Shown in pieces: positions 47,159-48,259 of a stretch of 64,000 nt of DNA. Under the pieces are notes generated by a model. That model was given only the letters and a program-made list of their open reading frames with translations. It made no database searches and was not told the DNA's origin. Source of the DNA: Trypanosoma brucei (taxonomy: Eukaryota); NCBI GenBank assembly GCA_000002445.1, contig CP000071.1, forward strand, positions 160,001-224,000. Direction: 5' to 3'. A program made the position numbers and the translations under genes. Numbering within the stretch: the stretch's first letter is position 1; the number at the start of each line of letters is the position of its first letter.

Positions 47159-48259
47159 TTAGTAACGACCCCTCCCAGAGTTCCCGCCGCGGAATCCACC
47201 TCTATTCCAGACCGCATTTGTTCCGCCTCTTCCGCTGTAAGGGGGCAGAGTGCGAGATGCATCGTTTAGGTGGTGATTTGGTGGGAAAGGATAGTTGTTT
47301 CGGCTGGAATAGGGATGAAAACCCCTATTTATTGCAGCAAACCCCCTTCCTAACAAATTGCTTGACATTCCTTGCCACTCACCCCCGCTATACAAGTACC
47401 TTTCTTCATTGGTATATCCCCTTCTCATTTCACCATTTGCTTGCCCTCTATACCCGCCACCCATGTAACCTCTTCCCCTACTTGAATACCCACCTCTCCC
47501 GTACCCTCTGTTCATTCCCAACTGATCCGCTTCATGGATTGGTTCATTATAAATGGCACCGAAACCACCTTGGGAAGAAGTGCTATTTATTCTCTGACGT
47601 CCACGTTGCCTGAAAAAACCCTGATGAACACCGCCGTACCCTCCTTCACCGTTGTAACGAAAGTAACCTCCCCGACGATATCTATGCTCATCCACGTGTT
47701 GTTCGTTGTGAAACTCGACTCCTCCCTCATGCCTAATTTTTGAAGGTCGCTCTTCGCCCTTATCGCCTCTCTTCCCAATTTTTTCCACACCATCATCAAC
47801 GCTCACAATACCTTCAACATCATAGTCACTTTCGCTGGTATTGTTTGAACTTTGCACTGATGTTTTACAAGCGGGCGCTACGCCACGAAAAGGCGGCGGC
47901 GCCATTTTCTCGAATGGGACACCACTGCAAATCTCACCACCGCAACTTGACTCACCATCCGTAACATTCTCAATAGGTTGTATATATCCAGTCACATGCA
48001 CTGAGCCGTTGCCAGTGGCGGAAAGAATAATATTCTGCTCTGCTTTAATCACAAGGTCAATCCCCATTTGCGATACATTCCTCACAGGATCAAGAGAAGC
48101 GATAGTAAATTCTTTACCCTGAAGGGAAACGACAAGAGAGACGGCATCACTTGTATTCGCAGGCACAGCAATTTGTGTGAGACGAAGTACGTTACCCTCC
48201 GGTATCTCTGGAATAACTTTCTCCCCGACGCTCACTTCAACACCGTAGAAACCCTCCAT
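47159..48259 (-). CDS. NOPP44/46-family divergent paralog: nucleoplasmin-like N-terminal domain plus Tyr/Gly/Arg-rich (RGG/YGG) C-terminal region, no long acidic tract
   Basis: 366 aa. N-terminus MEGFYGVEVSVGEKVIPEIPEGNVLRLTQIAVPANTSDAVSLVVSLQGKEFTIASLDP...GSVHVTGYIQP. The C-terminus has RGG/GYG repeats and ends ...GGFRGGNSGRGRY, identical to the array copy. Confidence 0.75.
   Translation of the reverse strand: MEGFYGVEVSVGEKVIPEIPEGNVLRLTQIAVPANTSDAVSLVVSLQGKEFTIASLDPVRNVSQMGIDLVIKAEQNIILSATGNGSVHVTGYIQPIENVTDGESSCGGEICSGVPFEKMAPPPFRGVAPACKTSVQSSNNTSESDYDVEGIVSVDDGVEKIGKRGDKGEERPSKIRHEGGVEFHNEQHVDEHRYRRGGYFRYNGEGGYGGVHQGFFRQRGRQRINSTSSQGGFGAIYNEPIHEADQLGMNRGYGRGGYSSRGRGYMGGGYRGQANGEMRRGYTNEERYLYSGGEWQGMSSNLLGRGFAAINRGFHPYSSRNNYPFPPNHHLNDASRTLPPYSGRGGTNAVWNRGGFRGGNSGRGRY

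What the first reader, a model, noticed from the sequence alone, without database searches (positions are those of the whole stretch)
47159..48259. Divergent array member swaps the acidic tract for a Tyr/Gly/Arg-rich low-complexity tail while keeping identical termini
Copy B keeps the MEGFYGVEV N-terminal domain, at roughly 65% identity to copy C by eye. It ends in the same GGFRGGNSGRGRY plus identical 3' flank. Its ~250-aa middle is GYG/RGG/YxxGG-rich (YGRGGYSSRGRGYMGGGYRGQ), like FUS or hnRNP-type prion-like and RGG domains, with no D/E tract. A nucleoplasmin-like oligomerisation core fused to a phase-separation-prone tail is an unusual architecture. It may scaffold a nucleolar sub-compartment.
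Basis: partly seen in the sequence, partly recalled or inferred. Interest (0 to 1): 0.55.

Follow-up and report, generated by a model that had tools for sequence, protein, structure and literature searches.

The report
Tyr/Arg-rich NOPP44/46 paralog (Tb927.8.750)
This is a real, expressed and already annotated Trypanosoma brucei gene (Tb927.8.750, NOPP44/46-2): a copy of a nucleolar RNA-binding protein that kept its nucleoplasmin-like core, lost the long acidic stretch, carries a disordered tail rich in arginine, glycine and tyrosine, and was seen in the nucleoplasm rather than the nucleolus.

Summary
The ORF at 47159-48259 (-) encodes 366 aa. It has a nucleoplasmin-like (NPL) domain that is 73% identical to the neighbouring classic copy. 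It has no D/E run longer than 2, and its last 176 aa are G/R/Y-rich and predicted to be disordered. Its final 11 aa plus 293 nt of 3' flank are 99% identical to the neighbour.

It is not new as a gene. It is 100% identical to UniProt Q57YF6 = Tb927.8.750 = NOPP44/46-2. The nucleotide sequence is identical in T. b. gambiense and T. equiperdum assemblies.
- The protein is detected in whole-cell, mRNA-bound and co-IP proteomes.
- The gene is present in three assemblies, so it is not an assembly chimera.

The NPL fold is confirmed. RG dipeptides are enriched beyond composition. However, an NPL core plus an RGG tail is the family norm. The tail is more RG-motif/hnRNP-like than prion-like. TrypTag reports nucleoplasm, not nucleolus.

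The Tyr-rich tail has no detectable homolog outside Trypanozoon. B is sister to the classic copy on a longer branch.

Best reading: a lineage-specific paralog with a changed function, acting as a multivalent nucleoplasmic RNA-binding protein. It is a new variant of a known kind and of modest interest.

The parts
47159..48259 (-). Complete CDS of copy B (366 aa plus TAA stop) = Tb927.8.750 / NOPP44/46-2 / UniProt Q57YF6.
   Evidence: The ORF is listed. It is 100% identical to P0001 (AAZ12846.1, CBH13083.1, SCU66017.1; UniRef Q57YF6). PMC9585242 links Q57YF6 to Tb927.8.750. The TrypTag primers for Tb927.8.750 match exactly at 47079-47241 and 48180-48338. The calculated MW of 39,761 Da equals the 39.7614 kDa listed for Tb927.8.750.
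47975..48259 (-). Residues 1-95: nucleoplasmin-like (NPL) beta-sandwich core, the presumed oligomerisation module.
   Evidence: Pfam PF17800 covers residues 4-93 at E = 8.4e-17. AF2 gives pLDDT 85-95 with 7 strands. Foldseek matches HDT1/2, FKBP43 NTD, PfNPM and NPM1 core. Against copy C it is 73% identical at the aa level, with dS 0.735, dN 0.160 and dN/dS 0.22. Pentamer formation itself is inferred, not tested.
47690..47974 (-). Residues 96-190: mildly acidic S/E/G/P-rich disordered linker (net charge -9, no D/E run longer than 2). It is collinear with the pre-poly-D linker of copy C. The poly-D tract itself is absent.
   Evidence: Composition is. pLDDT is mostly below 50, with blocks of 53-54 at residues 171-190. 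Smith-Waterman against C residues 95-225 gives z = 3.2, with 4 of 1000 shuffles reaching the score.
47162..47689 (-). Residues 191-366: basic, disordered Gly/Arg/Tyr-rich tail. It has 40 G, 25 R, 16 Y, 8 F, 2 W and pI 10.6. It has 14 RG, 5 RGG, 3 tri-RG and 1 di-RGG motifs. It is non-repetitive.
   Evidence: Searches give the counts. RG/GR enrichment over shuffles has p about 0.001. There are no tandem repeats. pLDDT is below 50. No homolog besides the protein itself appears at E <= 10.
46866..47194 (-). Sharp-edged block shared with the classic copies: the last 12 codons (FRGGNSGRGRY plus stop) and 293 nt of 3' flank. It is 99.1% identical to 48628-48956 and 50290-50606. It is either a gene-conversion tract or a repeat-unit boundary.
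   Evidence: Self-BLAST and alignment A2. The NPL coding DNA in the same pair is only 78-81% identical, so this block was homogenised much more recently (inference).
48260..48338 (-). 5' flank of B, with a polypyrimidine tract followed by AG dinucleotides. This is a candidate trans-splice acceptor region. It is B-specific beyond about 41 nt.
   Evidence: The sequence was read. About 41 nt upstream of the ATG is roughly 80% similar to the flank of copy C. The splice-site assignment is an inference; no RNA data were available.
48921..49907 (-). Copy C, a classic NOPP44/46-1-type member and the comparator. It has NPL, a poly-D/E tract (net -73) and FRGG repeats; 328 aa, pI 4.05. It contains Tyr181 within DDEAYDEDD.
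   Evidence: pY181 is cited as the TbPTP1 substrate site in PMC4621835.
46200..46465 (-). Copy A fragment. Codons 2-91 are 100% identical to copy C. The canonical ATG is missing (GTG AAG in its place), the 5' flank is unrelated, and it runs into the N gap at 46140-46199.
   Evidence: The T. b. gambiense counterpart is annotated 'truncated' (P0006).

Best explanation
The ORF is Tb927.8.750 (NOPP44/46-2). It is an intact, expressed paralog that sits inside the tandem NOPP44/46 array on T. brucei chromosome 8.

Origin. It arose by duplication of a classic NOPP44/46 gene within the African-trypanosome lineage. It kept the nucleoplasmin-fold core under purifying selection and kept part of the linker. 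It lacks the poly-Asp tract. In place of regular FRGG repeats it has a longer, non-repetitive, basic RG-motif domain with many tyrosines. Its last 12 codons and proximal 3' UTR are kept near-identical to its neighbours, probably by gene conversion.

Proposed mechanism (inferred). The core oligomerises, probably into pentamers as in other NPL proteins. It thereby presents several disordered Arg/Tyr-rich tails that bind RNA multivalently. The classic copy is net strongly acidic (pI 4.05), and its acidic tract can neutralise its own RGG domain. B has no such tract (whole protein pI 7.8, tail pI 10.6), so its RNA-binding tail should be constitutively exposed. The likely result is a nucleoplasmic, mRNA-associated protein that responds to PRMT1, rather than a nucleolar acidic chaperone or ribosome-biogenesis factor.

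Shown here or in cited data: identity, fold, disorder, composition, expression, mRNA-bound proteome membership, nucleoplasmic signal.

Inferred: oligomeric state, direct RNA binding through the tail, arginine methylation of this protein, any condensate behaviour.
For: - Identity.
- Present with an identical nucleotide CDS, and in the same C-B-A gene order, in DAL972. Also present on a T. equiperdum contig.
- NPL fold.
- Purifying selection on the core: dN/dS 0.22 at dS 0.735.
- B is sister to C in 186 of 200 bootstraps and sits on a longer branch. It has five changes at positions invariant in seven other family members, against two for C.
- Tail properties: disordered, RG-enriched at p about 0.001, di-RGG/tri-RG motifs, basic.
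- Protein evidence from PMC6299225: whole-cell intensity about 1.5e8, 1.9-fold up in the PRMT1 knockout (P = 6e-9), mRNA-bound fraction 0.6-fold, Lueong mRNA-binding FDR 0.033, and 6/17 spectra against 2 in the PRMT1-prozyme pull-down.
- Enriched about 5-fold with EIF4G3 and EIF4G4.
- Co-precipitated with NOPP44/46-1, NOP60 and Kap60 in the TbCul-D IP.
- TrypTag N-terminal fusion: 'nucleoplasm'.
Against: - The localisation rests on one high-throughput N-terminal tag placed on the putative oligomerisation domain, in procyclic forms only. C-terminal tagging failed.
- mRNA-bound proteome membership is marginal (FDR 0.033). The eIF4G co-IP rests on 2 peptides.
- No direct evidence was found that this protein is arginine-methylated, Tyr-phosphorylated, oligomeric, or condensate-forming.
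- The similarity of the RG region to the RGG repeats of C is not distinguishable from shared composition (79 of 1000 shuffles). 'Diverged RGG domain' versus 'replaced sequence' is therefore unresolved.
- The three assemblies are too close to test selection on the tail. Only about 5 SNPs occur in the flanks.
- No T. congolense sequence was recovered, so the timing of the duplication is bounded only by T. vivax.
Confidence: 0.6

Rival explanations
1. The pentameric core plus a FUS/hnRNP-like tail drives phase separation, and the protein scaffolds a nucleolar sub-compartment.
For: - NPL fold.
- The tail has 26 aromatic and 25 Arg residues in 176 aa and is disordered.
- Aromatic residues are slightly more evenly spaced than random (z = -1.5; 4% of shuffles).
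- The family founder is nucleolar.
- It was co-purified with the nucleolar proteins NOP60 and NOPP44/46-1.
- RG content correlates with nucleolar partitioning in T. brucei (PMC9659390).
Against: - The TrypTag annotation is 'nucleoplasm', with no nucleolar term.
- There are only 3 [GS]Y[GS] motifs and about 20% charged residues, so this is not a canonical prion-like domain.
- GY/YG dipeptides are not enriched beyond composition.
- No condensate data exist.
Confidence: 0.12
2. B acts as a subunit modifier. It co-assembles through its conserved NPL core with NOPP44/46-1 into mixed pentamers. This would tune the net charge and RNA-binding valency of the complex rather than give B an independent role. 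This reading is compatible with the main explanation.
For: - The cores are 73% identical, and the family-invariant core residues are largely retained.
- Both proteins were recovered together in the TbCul-D IP, and both lose mRNA association in the PRMT1 knockout.
- The two genes share a proximal 3' UTR, which suggests co-regulation.
Against: - The reported localisations differ: nucleoplasm for B, nucleolus for NOPP44/46-1.
- B has five changes at otherwise invariant core positions (K18E, A36T, T55S, K59V, T72K), and these could prevent mixing.
- No reciprocal pull-down exists.
Confidence: 0.2
3. B is a decaying paralog. Its RGG repeats and acidic tract have degenerated under relaxed constraint. 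The protein is still made but has little specific function.
For: - It sits on a longer branch and has more changes at invariant positions than C.
- The tail is non-repetitive, idiosyncratic and has no orthologs.
- The neighbouring copy A is a clear relic.
Against: - The 1,101-nt ORF is intact.
- Core dN/dS is 0.22.
- RG dipeptides are retained well above compositional expectation.
- The protein is abundant in proteomes and changes reproducibly on PRMT1 loss.
- The CDS is identical in three taxa.
Confidence: 0.12
4. B is an assembly chimera of two array copies or a mis-assembled collapsed repeat.
For: The array contains two 60-N gaps and a truncated copy next door.
Against: - The identical 366-aa protein and nucleotide CDS are found in TREU927-type, DAL972 and T. 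equiperdum assemblies, the last on a separate 3.2-kb contig.
- TrypTag N-terminal targeting with B-specific arms produced a fluorescent cell line.
- The MS-reported protein mass matches.
- About 775 nt of B coding sequence (47195-47969) has no similar counterpart in any other copy in the window, so there is nothing from which to build a chimera.
Confidence: 0.01

Closest known systems
T. brucei NOPP44/46-1 (Tb927.8.760 type; copy C at 48921-49907)
   Same: It is in the same tandem array. It has the same N-terminal NPL ('unique') domain (73% aa identity), the same C-terminal FRGGNSGRGRY and the same proximal 3' UTR. It also has an RG-motif C-terminal region and has also been recovered in mRNA-bound proteomes.
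   Different: B has no poly-D/E tract and therefore no Y181 TbPTP1 site. It has no regular FRGG repeats (5 RGG against 14). Its tail is 9% Tyr against 1%. Its pI is 7.8 against 4.05. Its tail is non-repetitive. It is reported in the nucleoplasm, whereas NOPP44/46-1 is nucleolar.
Nucleophosmin/NPM1 and nucleoplasmin family (and the wider NPL-domain group: plant HDT/HD2, FKBP39/43/53, PfNPM)
   Same: They share the N-terminal beta-sandwich core fold (Foldseek TM 0.72-0.89) followed by a long disordered region. The principle of an oligomeric core presenting multivalent tails is the same.
   Different: The known members follow the core with acidic tracts that bind histones or basic proteins. B has none. 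B also lacks a folded C-terminal nucleic-acid-binding, FKBP or zinc-finger domain. Sequence identity to the solved cores is only 15-31%.
Leishmania NPL-RGG protein (P0002, L. donovani CGC21_10540, 204 aa)
   Same: It has an NPL core directly followed by an RG-rich basic tail without an acidic tract, and it ends in KRGRY.
   Different: The Leishmania tail is a perfect GGFRGGRGGDR repeat (25 RGG, 53% Gly, 1% Tyr). The tail of B is non-repetitive and Tyr-rich and is preceded by a 95-aa linker.
FET-family (FUS/EWS/TAF15) and hnRNP A1-type low-complexity/RGG regions
   Same: Tyr and Arg stickers sit in a Gly/Ser/Asn-rich disordered context. RG/RGG motifs are typical PRMT1 substrates. Local strings such as NRGYGRGGYSSRGRGYMGGGYRG resemble hnRNP A1/FUS RGG segments.
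   Different: There is no sequence homology, no RRM or zinc finger, and only 3 [GS]Y[GS] motifs. Charged content is much higher than in a prion-like domain. Tyr and Arg are interspersed rather than split into separate PLD and RGG modules. The two R-x3-PY strings are not significant (p = 0.13).

Membership tests
NPL / nucleoplasmin-like domain proteins (Pfam PF17800) | Sequence match to the NPL profile above the curated threshold | tested here: met
   62.1 bits against a 23.4-bit cut-off, E = 8.4e-17. Residues 4-93 cover profile positions 1-93 of 94.
NPL / nucleoplasmin-like domain proteins (Pfam PF17800) | Eight-stranded beta-sandwich core fold superposable on solved NPL/nucleoplasmin cores | tested here: met
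   The AF2 model has pLDDT 85-95 for residues 1-100. Foldseek matches 7vrr (HDT1), 7wim (FKBP43 NTD), 8zs0 (PfNPM) and 4n8m/8as5 (NPM1) at E = 1e-6 to 1e-8 and target TM 0.72-0.89.
NPL / nucleoplasmin-like domain proteins (Pfam PF17800) | Pentamer (or decamer) formation | not testable with these tools
   Only monomer prediction was available. Oligomerisation is inferred from the fold.
NPL / nucleoplasmin-like domain proteins (Pfam PF17800) | Acidic tract(s) following the core. This is typical of histone-chaperone members rather than strictly defining. | tested here: not met
   The longest D/E run is 2. The linker has net charge -9 and the tail +15. Nearly all of the 53 relatives carry tails with 16-65% D/E.
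NOPP44/46 family (trypanosome nucleolar phosphoprotein) | Homologous N-terminal 'unique' domain and membership of the chromosome-8 tandem array | tested here: met
   It is 73% identical to copy C over residues 1-94 and sister to it in the NJ tree in 186 of 200 bootstraps. It lies between copies C and A. It is named NOPP44/46-2 in PMC6299225 and PMC9585242.
NOPP44/46 family (trypanosome nucleolar phosphoprotein) | Central acidic domain | tested here: not met
   There is no poly-D/E tract. Only a weakly acidic linker is present, collinear with the pre-poly-D part of C.
NOPP44/46 family (trypanosome nucleolar phosphoprotein) | C-terminal RGG-repeat nucleic-acid-binding domain | tested here: inconclusive
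   B has 14 RG, 5 RGG, 1 di-RGG, 3 tri-RG and no tri-RGG motifs. There are no tandem repeats. RG content is enriched over composition. Alignment to the C repeats is not better than shuffles. The terminal FRGGNSGRGRY is shared.
NOPP44/46 family (trypanosome nucleolar phosphoprotein) | Nucleolar localisation | tested here: not met
   This was tested only through the literature. The TrypTag N-terminal fusion is annotated 'nucleoplasm' (PMC9981465 supplement). It is a single high-throughput observation.
NOPP44/46 family (trypanosome nucleolar phosphoprotein) | Tyrosine phosphorylation (pY181 in the acidic tract; TbPTP1 substrate) | not testable with these tools
   The Y181 context (DDEAYDEDD) is absent from B. 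B has 19 Tyr, including Y146 in SESDYDVEG. No phosphoproteome data for B could be retrieved.
Prion-like / FET-type low-complexity domain | Dense [G/S]Y[G/S] motifs in an uncharged polar (S/Y/G/Q/N) domain | tested here: not met
   There are 3 [GS]Y[GS] motifs in 176 aa. Arg is 14.2% and D+E 5.7%. GY/YG is not enriched over shuffles.
Prion-like / FET-type low-complexity domain | Associated RRM/zinc-finger RNA-binding domains and a C-terminal PY-NLS | tested here: not met
   There is no Pfam domain other than NPL. Two R-x3-PY strings occur at residues 312-317 and 336-341, but the PY count is not significant (p = 0.13).
RG/RGG-motif proteins (di-/tri-RG(G) definition recalled from Thandapani et al. 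2013) | At least a di-RGG or tri-RG motif in a disordered region | tested here: met
   di-RGG at residues 353-359. tri-RG at 251-262, 255-264 and 353-364. pLDDT is below 50.

The most novel reading that the evidence does not exclude
Tb927.8.750 is a Trypanozoon-specific invention. A nucleoplasmin-fold pentamer has swapped its self-neutralising acidic tract for five exposed Arg/Tyr sticker-rich tails. This would create a FET/hnRNP-A1-like condensate scaffold or mRNP chaperone in the nucleoplasm. Its assembly would be tuned by PRMT1 arginine methylation and by the tyrosine kinase/TbPTP1 axis that controls life-cycle differentiation. That would be convergent evolution of a FUS-like module on a histone-chaperone chassis.
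Probability: 0.12. Interest if true: 0.6.

Novelty: new variant of a known kind. Interest (0 to 1): 0.3.

Why it matters
NOPP44/46 is an essential, trypanosome-specific ribosome-biogenesis factor. It is also a substrate of TbPTP1, the tyrosine phosphatase that gates life-cycle differentiation. A sister paralog with the same core but an opposite-charge, Tyr-rich tail and a different nuclear address is a natural experiment. It can show how disordered tails set the localisation and client choice of nucleoplasmin-fold oligomers.

It also matters practically. The two genes share a C-terminus and a 3' UTR, so antibodies, RNAi fragments and tagging constructs aimed at 'NOPP44/46' may cross-hit this paralog. 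The 1.9-fold rise in protein abundance and the fall in mRNA association in PRMT1-null cells make it a candidate effector of arginine methylation.

It does not open a new category. The gene is annotated, named and already in several proteomic datasets.

Tried and rejected
1. Tail-only homology search (residues 97-366) at E <= 10 returned only the protein itself.
2. Exhaustive HMMER of the full protein against 1.84 billion representatives gave 53 hits. All but one matched through the NPL domain only. The exception, P0032, gave a low-complexity match to residues 285-324 of an unrelated 909-aa repeat/WD-like protein and was dismissed.
3. The idea that the tail is a frame-shifted or reverse-strand derivative of the poly-D/RGG DNA was rejected. 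The other frames of the C tract read MT/VT/SS repeats (ORFs). BLASTN finds no B-C similarity between 47195 and 47969.
4. Smith-Waterman of the B RG region against the C RGG repeats was not better than composition-preserving shuffles.
5. The PY-NLS idea was not significant.
6. I looked for RNA-level evidence (spliced leader or polyA) through assembled public runs. Only two genome assemblies were returned and no transcript contigs.
7. A selection test on the tail across Trypanozoon was impossible because the CDS is nucleotide-identical in all three.
8. The Rfam scan of the whole window gave no hits. The plus-strand ORFs overlapping B (131, 93 and 80 aa) were treated as spurious because all long ORFs in the neighbourhood are on the minus strand.
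9. The key NOPP44/46 primary papers (PMC544161, PMC2903352, PMC2168238) are not held. Several literature hits for 'Tb927.8.750/730/760' were in fact Tb927.8.7500.7300 and .7600.
10. No T. congolense homolog was recovered in the three capped protein searches.
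Full report
**1. What is in the sequence**

The minus-strand ORF at 47159-48259 encodes 366 aa beginning MEGFYGVEV. It lies in a head-to-tail array on the minus strand. In the direction of transcription the array runs as follows:
- the 3' end of a copy cut by a 60-N run (50147-50606; Ns at 50607-50666);
- copy C (48921-49907, 328 aa);
- copy B, the finding;
- a fragment, copy A (46200-46465), which runs into a second 60-N run (46140-46199);
- a more distant 253-aa paralog (44635-45396).

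**2. Checking the observation**

*N-terminal domain.* B and C are 69/94 (73%) identical over the N-terminal domain and 60% identical over residues 1-126.

*Copy C.* After the domain, C has a 131-aa tract that is 45% Asp with a D/E run of 19. This is followed by 103 aa of regular FRGG repeats (13 RGG in that block; 36- and 81-nt DNA repeats).

*Copy B.* B has no D/E run longer than 2. Its remainder falls into two parts:
- Residues 96-190 are a mildly acidic S/E/G/P linker with net charge -9. This linker is weakly but significantly collinear with the pre-poly-D linker of C (Smith-Waterman z = 3.2; 4 of 1000 shuffles).
- Residues 191-366 are 22.7% Gly, 14.2% Arg and 9.1% Tyr. Net charge is +15 and pI is 10.6.

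*Nature of the tail.* It is compositionally biased but not repetitive. It has no tandem repeats and entropy of 2.9-3.7 bits. RG/GR dipeptides are enriched over composition-matched shuffles (21 against 11.3 +/- 2.8; p about 0.001). GY/YG dipeptides are not enriched.

*Shared 3' end.* The last 11 residues (FRGGNSGRGRY) are identical in B and C. At the DNA level, 46866-47194 equals 48628-48956 at 99.1% over 329 nt, and similarity then ends abruptly.

The Tyr/Gly/Arg-rich part is about 176 aa, not about 250 aa. Part of the 'middle' is a retained, de-acidified linker.

**3. Identity**

- The protein is 100% identical to a database entry carrying accessions from T. b. brucei TREU927 (AAZ12846.1), T. 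b. gambiense DAL972 (CBH13083.1) and T. equiperdum (SCU66017.1). The UniRef entry is Q57YF6.
- PMC9585242 lists Q57YF6 as Tb927.8.750, 'NOPP44/46-2'. PMC6299225 uses the same name.
- The TrypTag tagging primers for Tb927.8.750 match the window exactly at 47079-47241 and 48180-48338.
- The calculated mass of 39,761 Da equals the 39.7614 kDa tabulated for Tb927.8.750.
- Copy C carries Tyr181 in DDEAYDEDD. This matches the pY181 TbPTP1 site quoted for NOPP44/46, so C is the classic NOPP44/46-1 type.

**4. Real and expressed, or an artefact?**

The B CDS is nucleotide-identical in DAL972, where the C-B-A gene order is the same, and on an independent 3.2-kb T. equiperdum contig. About 775 nt of B coding sequence (47195-47969) has no similar counterpart in any other copy in the window, so there is nothing from which a chimera could be built.

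Protein-level evidence:
- It is abundant in the whole-cell proteome, 1.9-fold up in PRMT1-null cells (P = 6e-9).
- It is present in the oligo(dT)-captured mRNA-bound proteome, 0.6-fold in the knockout, with prior mRNA-binding FDR 0.033.
- It gave 6 and 17 spectra against 2 in a PRMT1-prozyme pull-down.
- It is enriched about 5-fold with EIF4G3 and EIF4G4.
- It was significant in a TbCul-D IP, together with NOPP44/46-1, NOP60 and Kap60.

**5. Structure and family**

- Pfam NPL (PF17800) matches residues 4-93 in B, in C and in the 253-aa paralog.
- AF2 gives a confident 7-strand beta-sandwich for residues 1-100 (pLDDT 85-95). Nearly everything after residue 104 has pLDDT below 50.
- Foldseek against the PDB returns Arabidopsis HDT1/2/3/4, the FKBP43/53 N-domains, P. 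falciparum nucleoplasmin, and NPM1/NO38/NLP cores. Target TM is 0.72-0.89.

The 'nucleoplasmin-like core' is confirmed as a fold. Pentamerisation is inferred.

**6. Evolution**

- Between B and C the core has dS 0.735, dN 0.160 and dN/dS 0.22. The duplication is not recent, and the core of B has been under purifying selection.
- In an NJ tree of NPL domains, B and C are sisters (186 of 200 bootstraps), with B on a branch about twice as long. T. vivax, T. theileri, T. conorhini, T. cruzi and Leishmania lie outside.
- B has five substitutions at positions invariant in seven other members (K18E, A36T, T55S, K59V, T72K). C has two.
- The tail has no homolog other than itself at E <= 10.
- In an exhaustive HMMER scan of 1.84 billion representatives, all genuine hits align only to the NPL domain. 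None of them has a Tyr-rich tail: at most about 3% Tyr, against 9% in B.
- Family members in T. cruzi, T. theileri and T. conorhini are NPL plus acidic tract. T. cruzi also has an RGG region; the other two records are partial. A Leishmania member is NPL plus perfect RGG repeats with no acidic tract.

An NPL core with an RG tail is therefore the family plan. Loss of the acidic tract has a precedent. The Tyr-rich, non-repetitive tail appears to be restricted to Trypanozoon. One caveat is that no T. congolense sequence was recovered.

The 99% identical 3' block, next to coding DNA that is only 78-81% identical, implies recent homogenisation by gene conversion or unequal exchange. B and C thus share their proximal 3' UTR. 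This may matter because trypanosome mRNA levels are set largely through 3' UTRs (inference from general knowledge).

**7. Localisation**

In the TrypTag supplement, the N-terminally tagged Tb927.8.750 line is annotated 'nucleoplasm'. C-terminal tagging was only 'attempted'. The last 40 nt of the C-terminal 3'-UTR arm occur three times in the window, which may explain the failure. The classic protein is nucleolar. This is the only localisation datum, and it is a high-throughput tag on the putative oligomerisation domain.

**8. How it most likely works**

*Shown:* an NPL-fold core; a disordered, basic, RG-motif-enriched, Tyr-rich tail; protein expression; recovery with polyA RNA and with eIF4G complexes; a response to PRMT1 loss; a nucleoplasmic signal.

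*Inferred:*
- The core oligomerises.
- The tails bind RNA multivalently.
- The tail is constitutively available because the intramolecular acidic counter-ion tract of the classic paralog is missing (pI 4.05 for C against 7.8 for B).
- PRMT1 methylates the RG clusters and promotes RNA association. In the knockout, abundance goes up while the mRNA-bound amount goes down.

Condensate formation is plausible given 26 aromatic and 25 Arg residues in 176 aa. Aromatic spacing is slightly more even than random (z = -1.5). It is untested. The tail is better described as an RG/RGG-plus-Tyr region of hnRNP A1 or FUS-RGG type than as a prion-like domain: it has 3 [GS]Y[GS] motifs, about 20% charged residues, and no RRM or zinc finger.

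**9. Rivals**

- Nucleolar scaffold: confidence 0.12. TrypTag argues against it.
- Hetero-pentamer modifier of NOPP44/46-1: confidence 0.2. It is compatible with the main model.
- Decaying paralog: confidence 0.12. Against it are the intact ORF, core dN/dS of 0.22, retained RG enrichment and protein abundance.
- Assembly chimera: confidence 0.01.

**10. Novelty and score**

The gene is annotated, named, localised by a genome-wide screen and present in several proteomic tables. No paper in the searched library discusses its divergent tail or studies it individually. Only three papers mention the ID in their main text. It is a new variant of a known kind. It is a tidy example of tail swapping on a nucleoplasmin chassis and a plausible PRMT1 effector, but it is not a surprise to a specialist. 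Interest 0.3.

Noticed in passing
window 46119-46559 (copy A; identity block 46200-46465; N run 46140-46199): Codons 2-91 of copy A are 100% identical to copy C. The start is GTG AAG instead of ATG GAG, and the 5' flank (46466-46865) is unrelated to that of C. The copy ends in a 60-N run. In T. b. gambiense the sequence is contiguous across this point and the gene is annotated as a 119-aa 'truncated' protein that uses an upstream ATG (MLSPLSP...). It looks like a relic terminal array copy, or a collapsed assembly.
   Followed up: partly
window 50147-50666: This is the 3' UTR plus the last 24 nt of another classic-type copy, 99.8% identical to 48485-48944. It abuts a second 60-N run. The true copy number of the NOPP44/46 array is therefore under-represented in this window.
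   Followed up: partly
window 49272-49350 (poly-Asp tract of copy C) versus L001/L002: The poly-D coding tract of copy C differs by 6-nt and 9-nt indels between this window and T. b. gambiense. The T. equiperdum record has Ns in this tract. The B CDS has no difference at all in either taxon.
   Followed up: partly
window 44635-45396 (-): A third, distant NPL-domain paralog of 253 aa, only 28-32% identical to B and C in the core. It has a 31-residue D/E run and a KRGRF C-terminus. It equals UniProt Q57YF7. By gene order it is probably Tb927.8.730, which TrypTag lists among nucleolar proteins.
   Followed up: partly
window 47237-47254 and 47309-47326 (B residues 336-341 RTLPPY, 312-317 RGFHPY): Two R-x3-PY strings sit in a basic disordered context and resemble PY-NLS cores. 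The classic copy C has none, and C instead has a conserved K[VI]QRTEQ junction that B lacks. The PY count is not statistically significant (p = 0.13), so this is only a lead for a different nuclear import route.
   Followed up: partly
window 47079-47158, 48881-48920, 50543-50582: The 3'-UTR homology arm used by TrypTag for C-terminal tagging of Tb927.8.750 is partly shared with the classic copies: its last 40 nt occur three times in the window. This may explain why C-terminal tagging failed. It also warns that C-terminal or 3'-UTR reagents for 'NOPP44/46' are not paralog-specific.
   Followed up: no
window 43348-43896 (-), 51318-53252 (-), 53736-56813 (-): The neighbouring minus-strand ORFs are a 182-aa protein with an FeS_assembly_P (PF01883) domain, a 644-aa ORF and a 1025-aa coiled-coil-like, E/R/Q-rich ORF. 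The last two have no Pfam match. All lie on the same strand, as expected for one polycistronic unit. Rfam found no RNA family anywhere in the window.
   Followed up: partly
P0007 (UniRef: Lygus hesperus, 114 aa): A 'Lygus hesperus' (plant bug) protein is a trypanosomatid-type NOPP NPL domain that groups with Leishmania in the tree. It probably reflects a trypanosomatid parasite or contaminant in the insect transcriptome.
   Followed up: no
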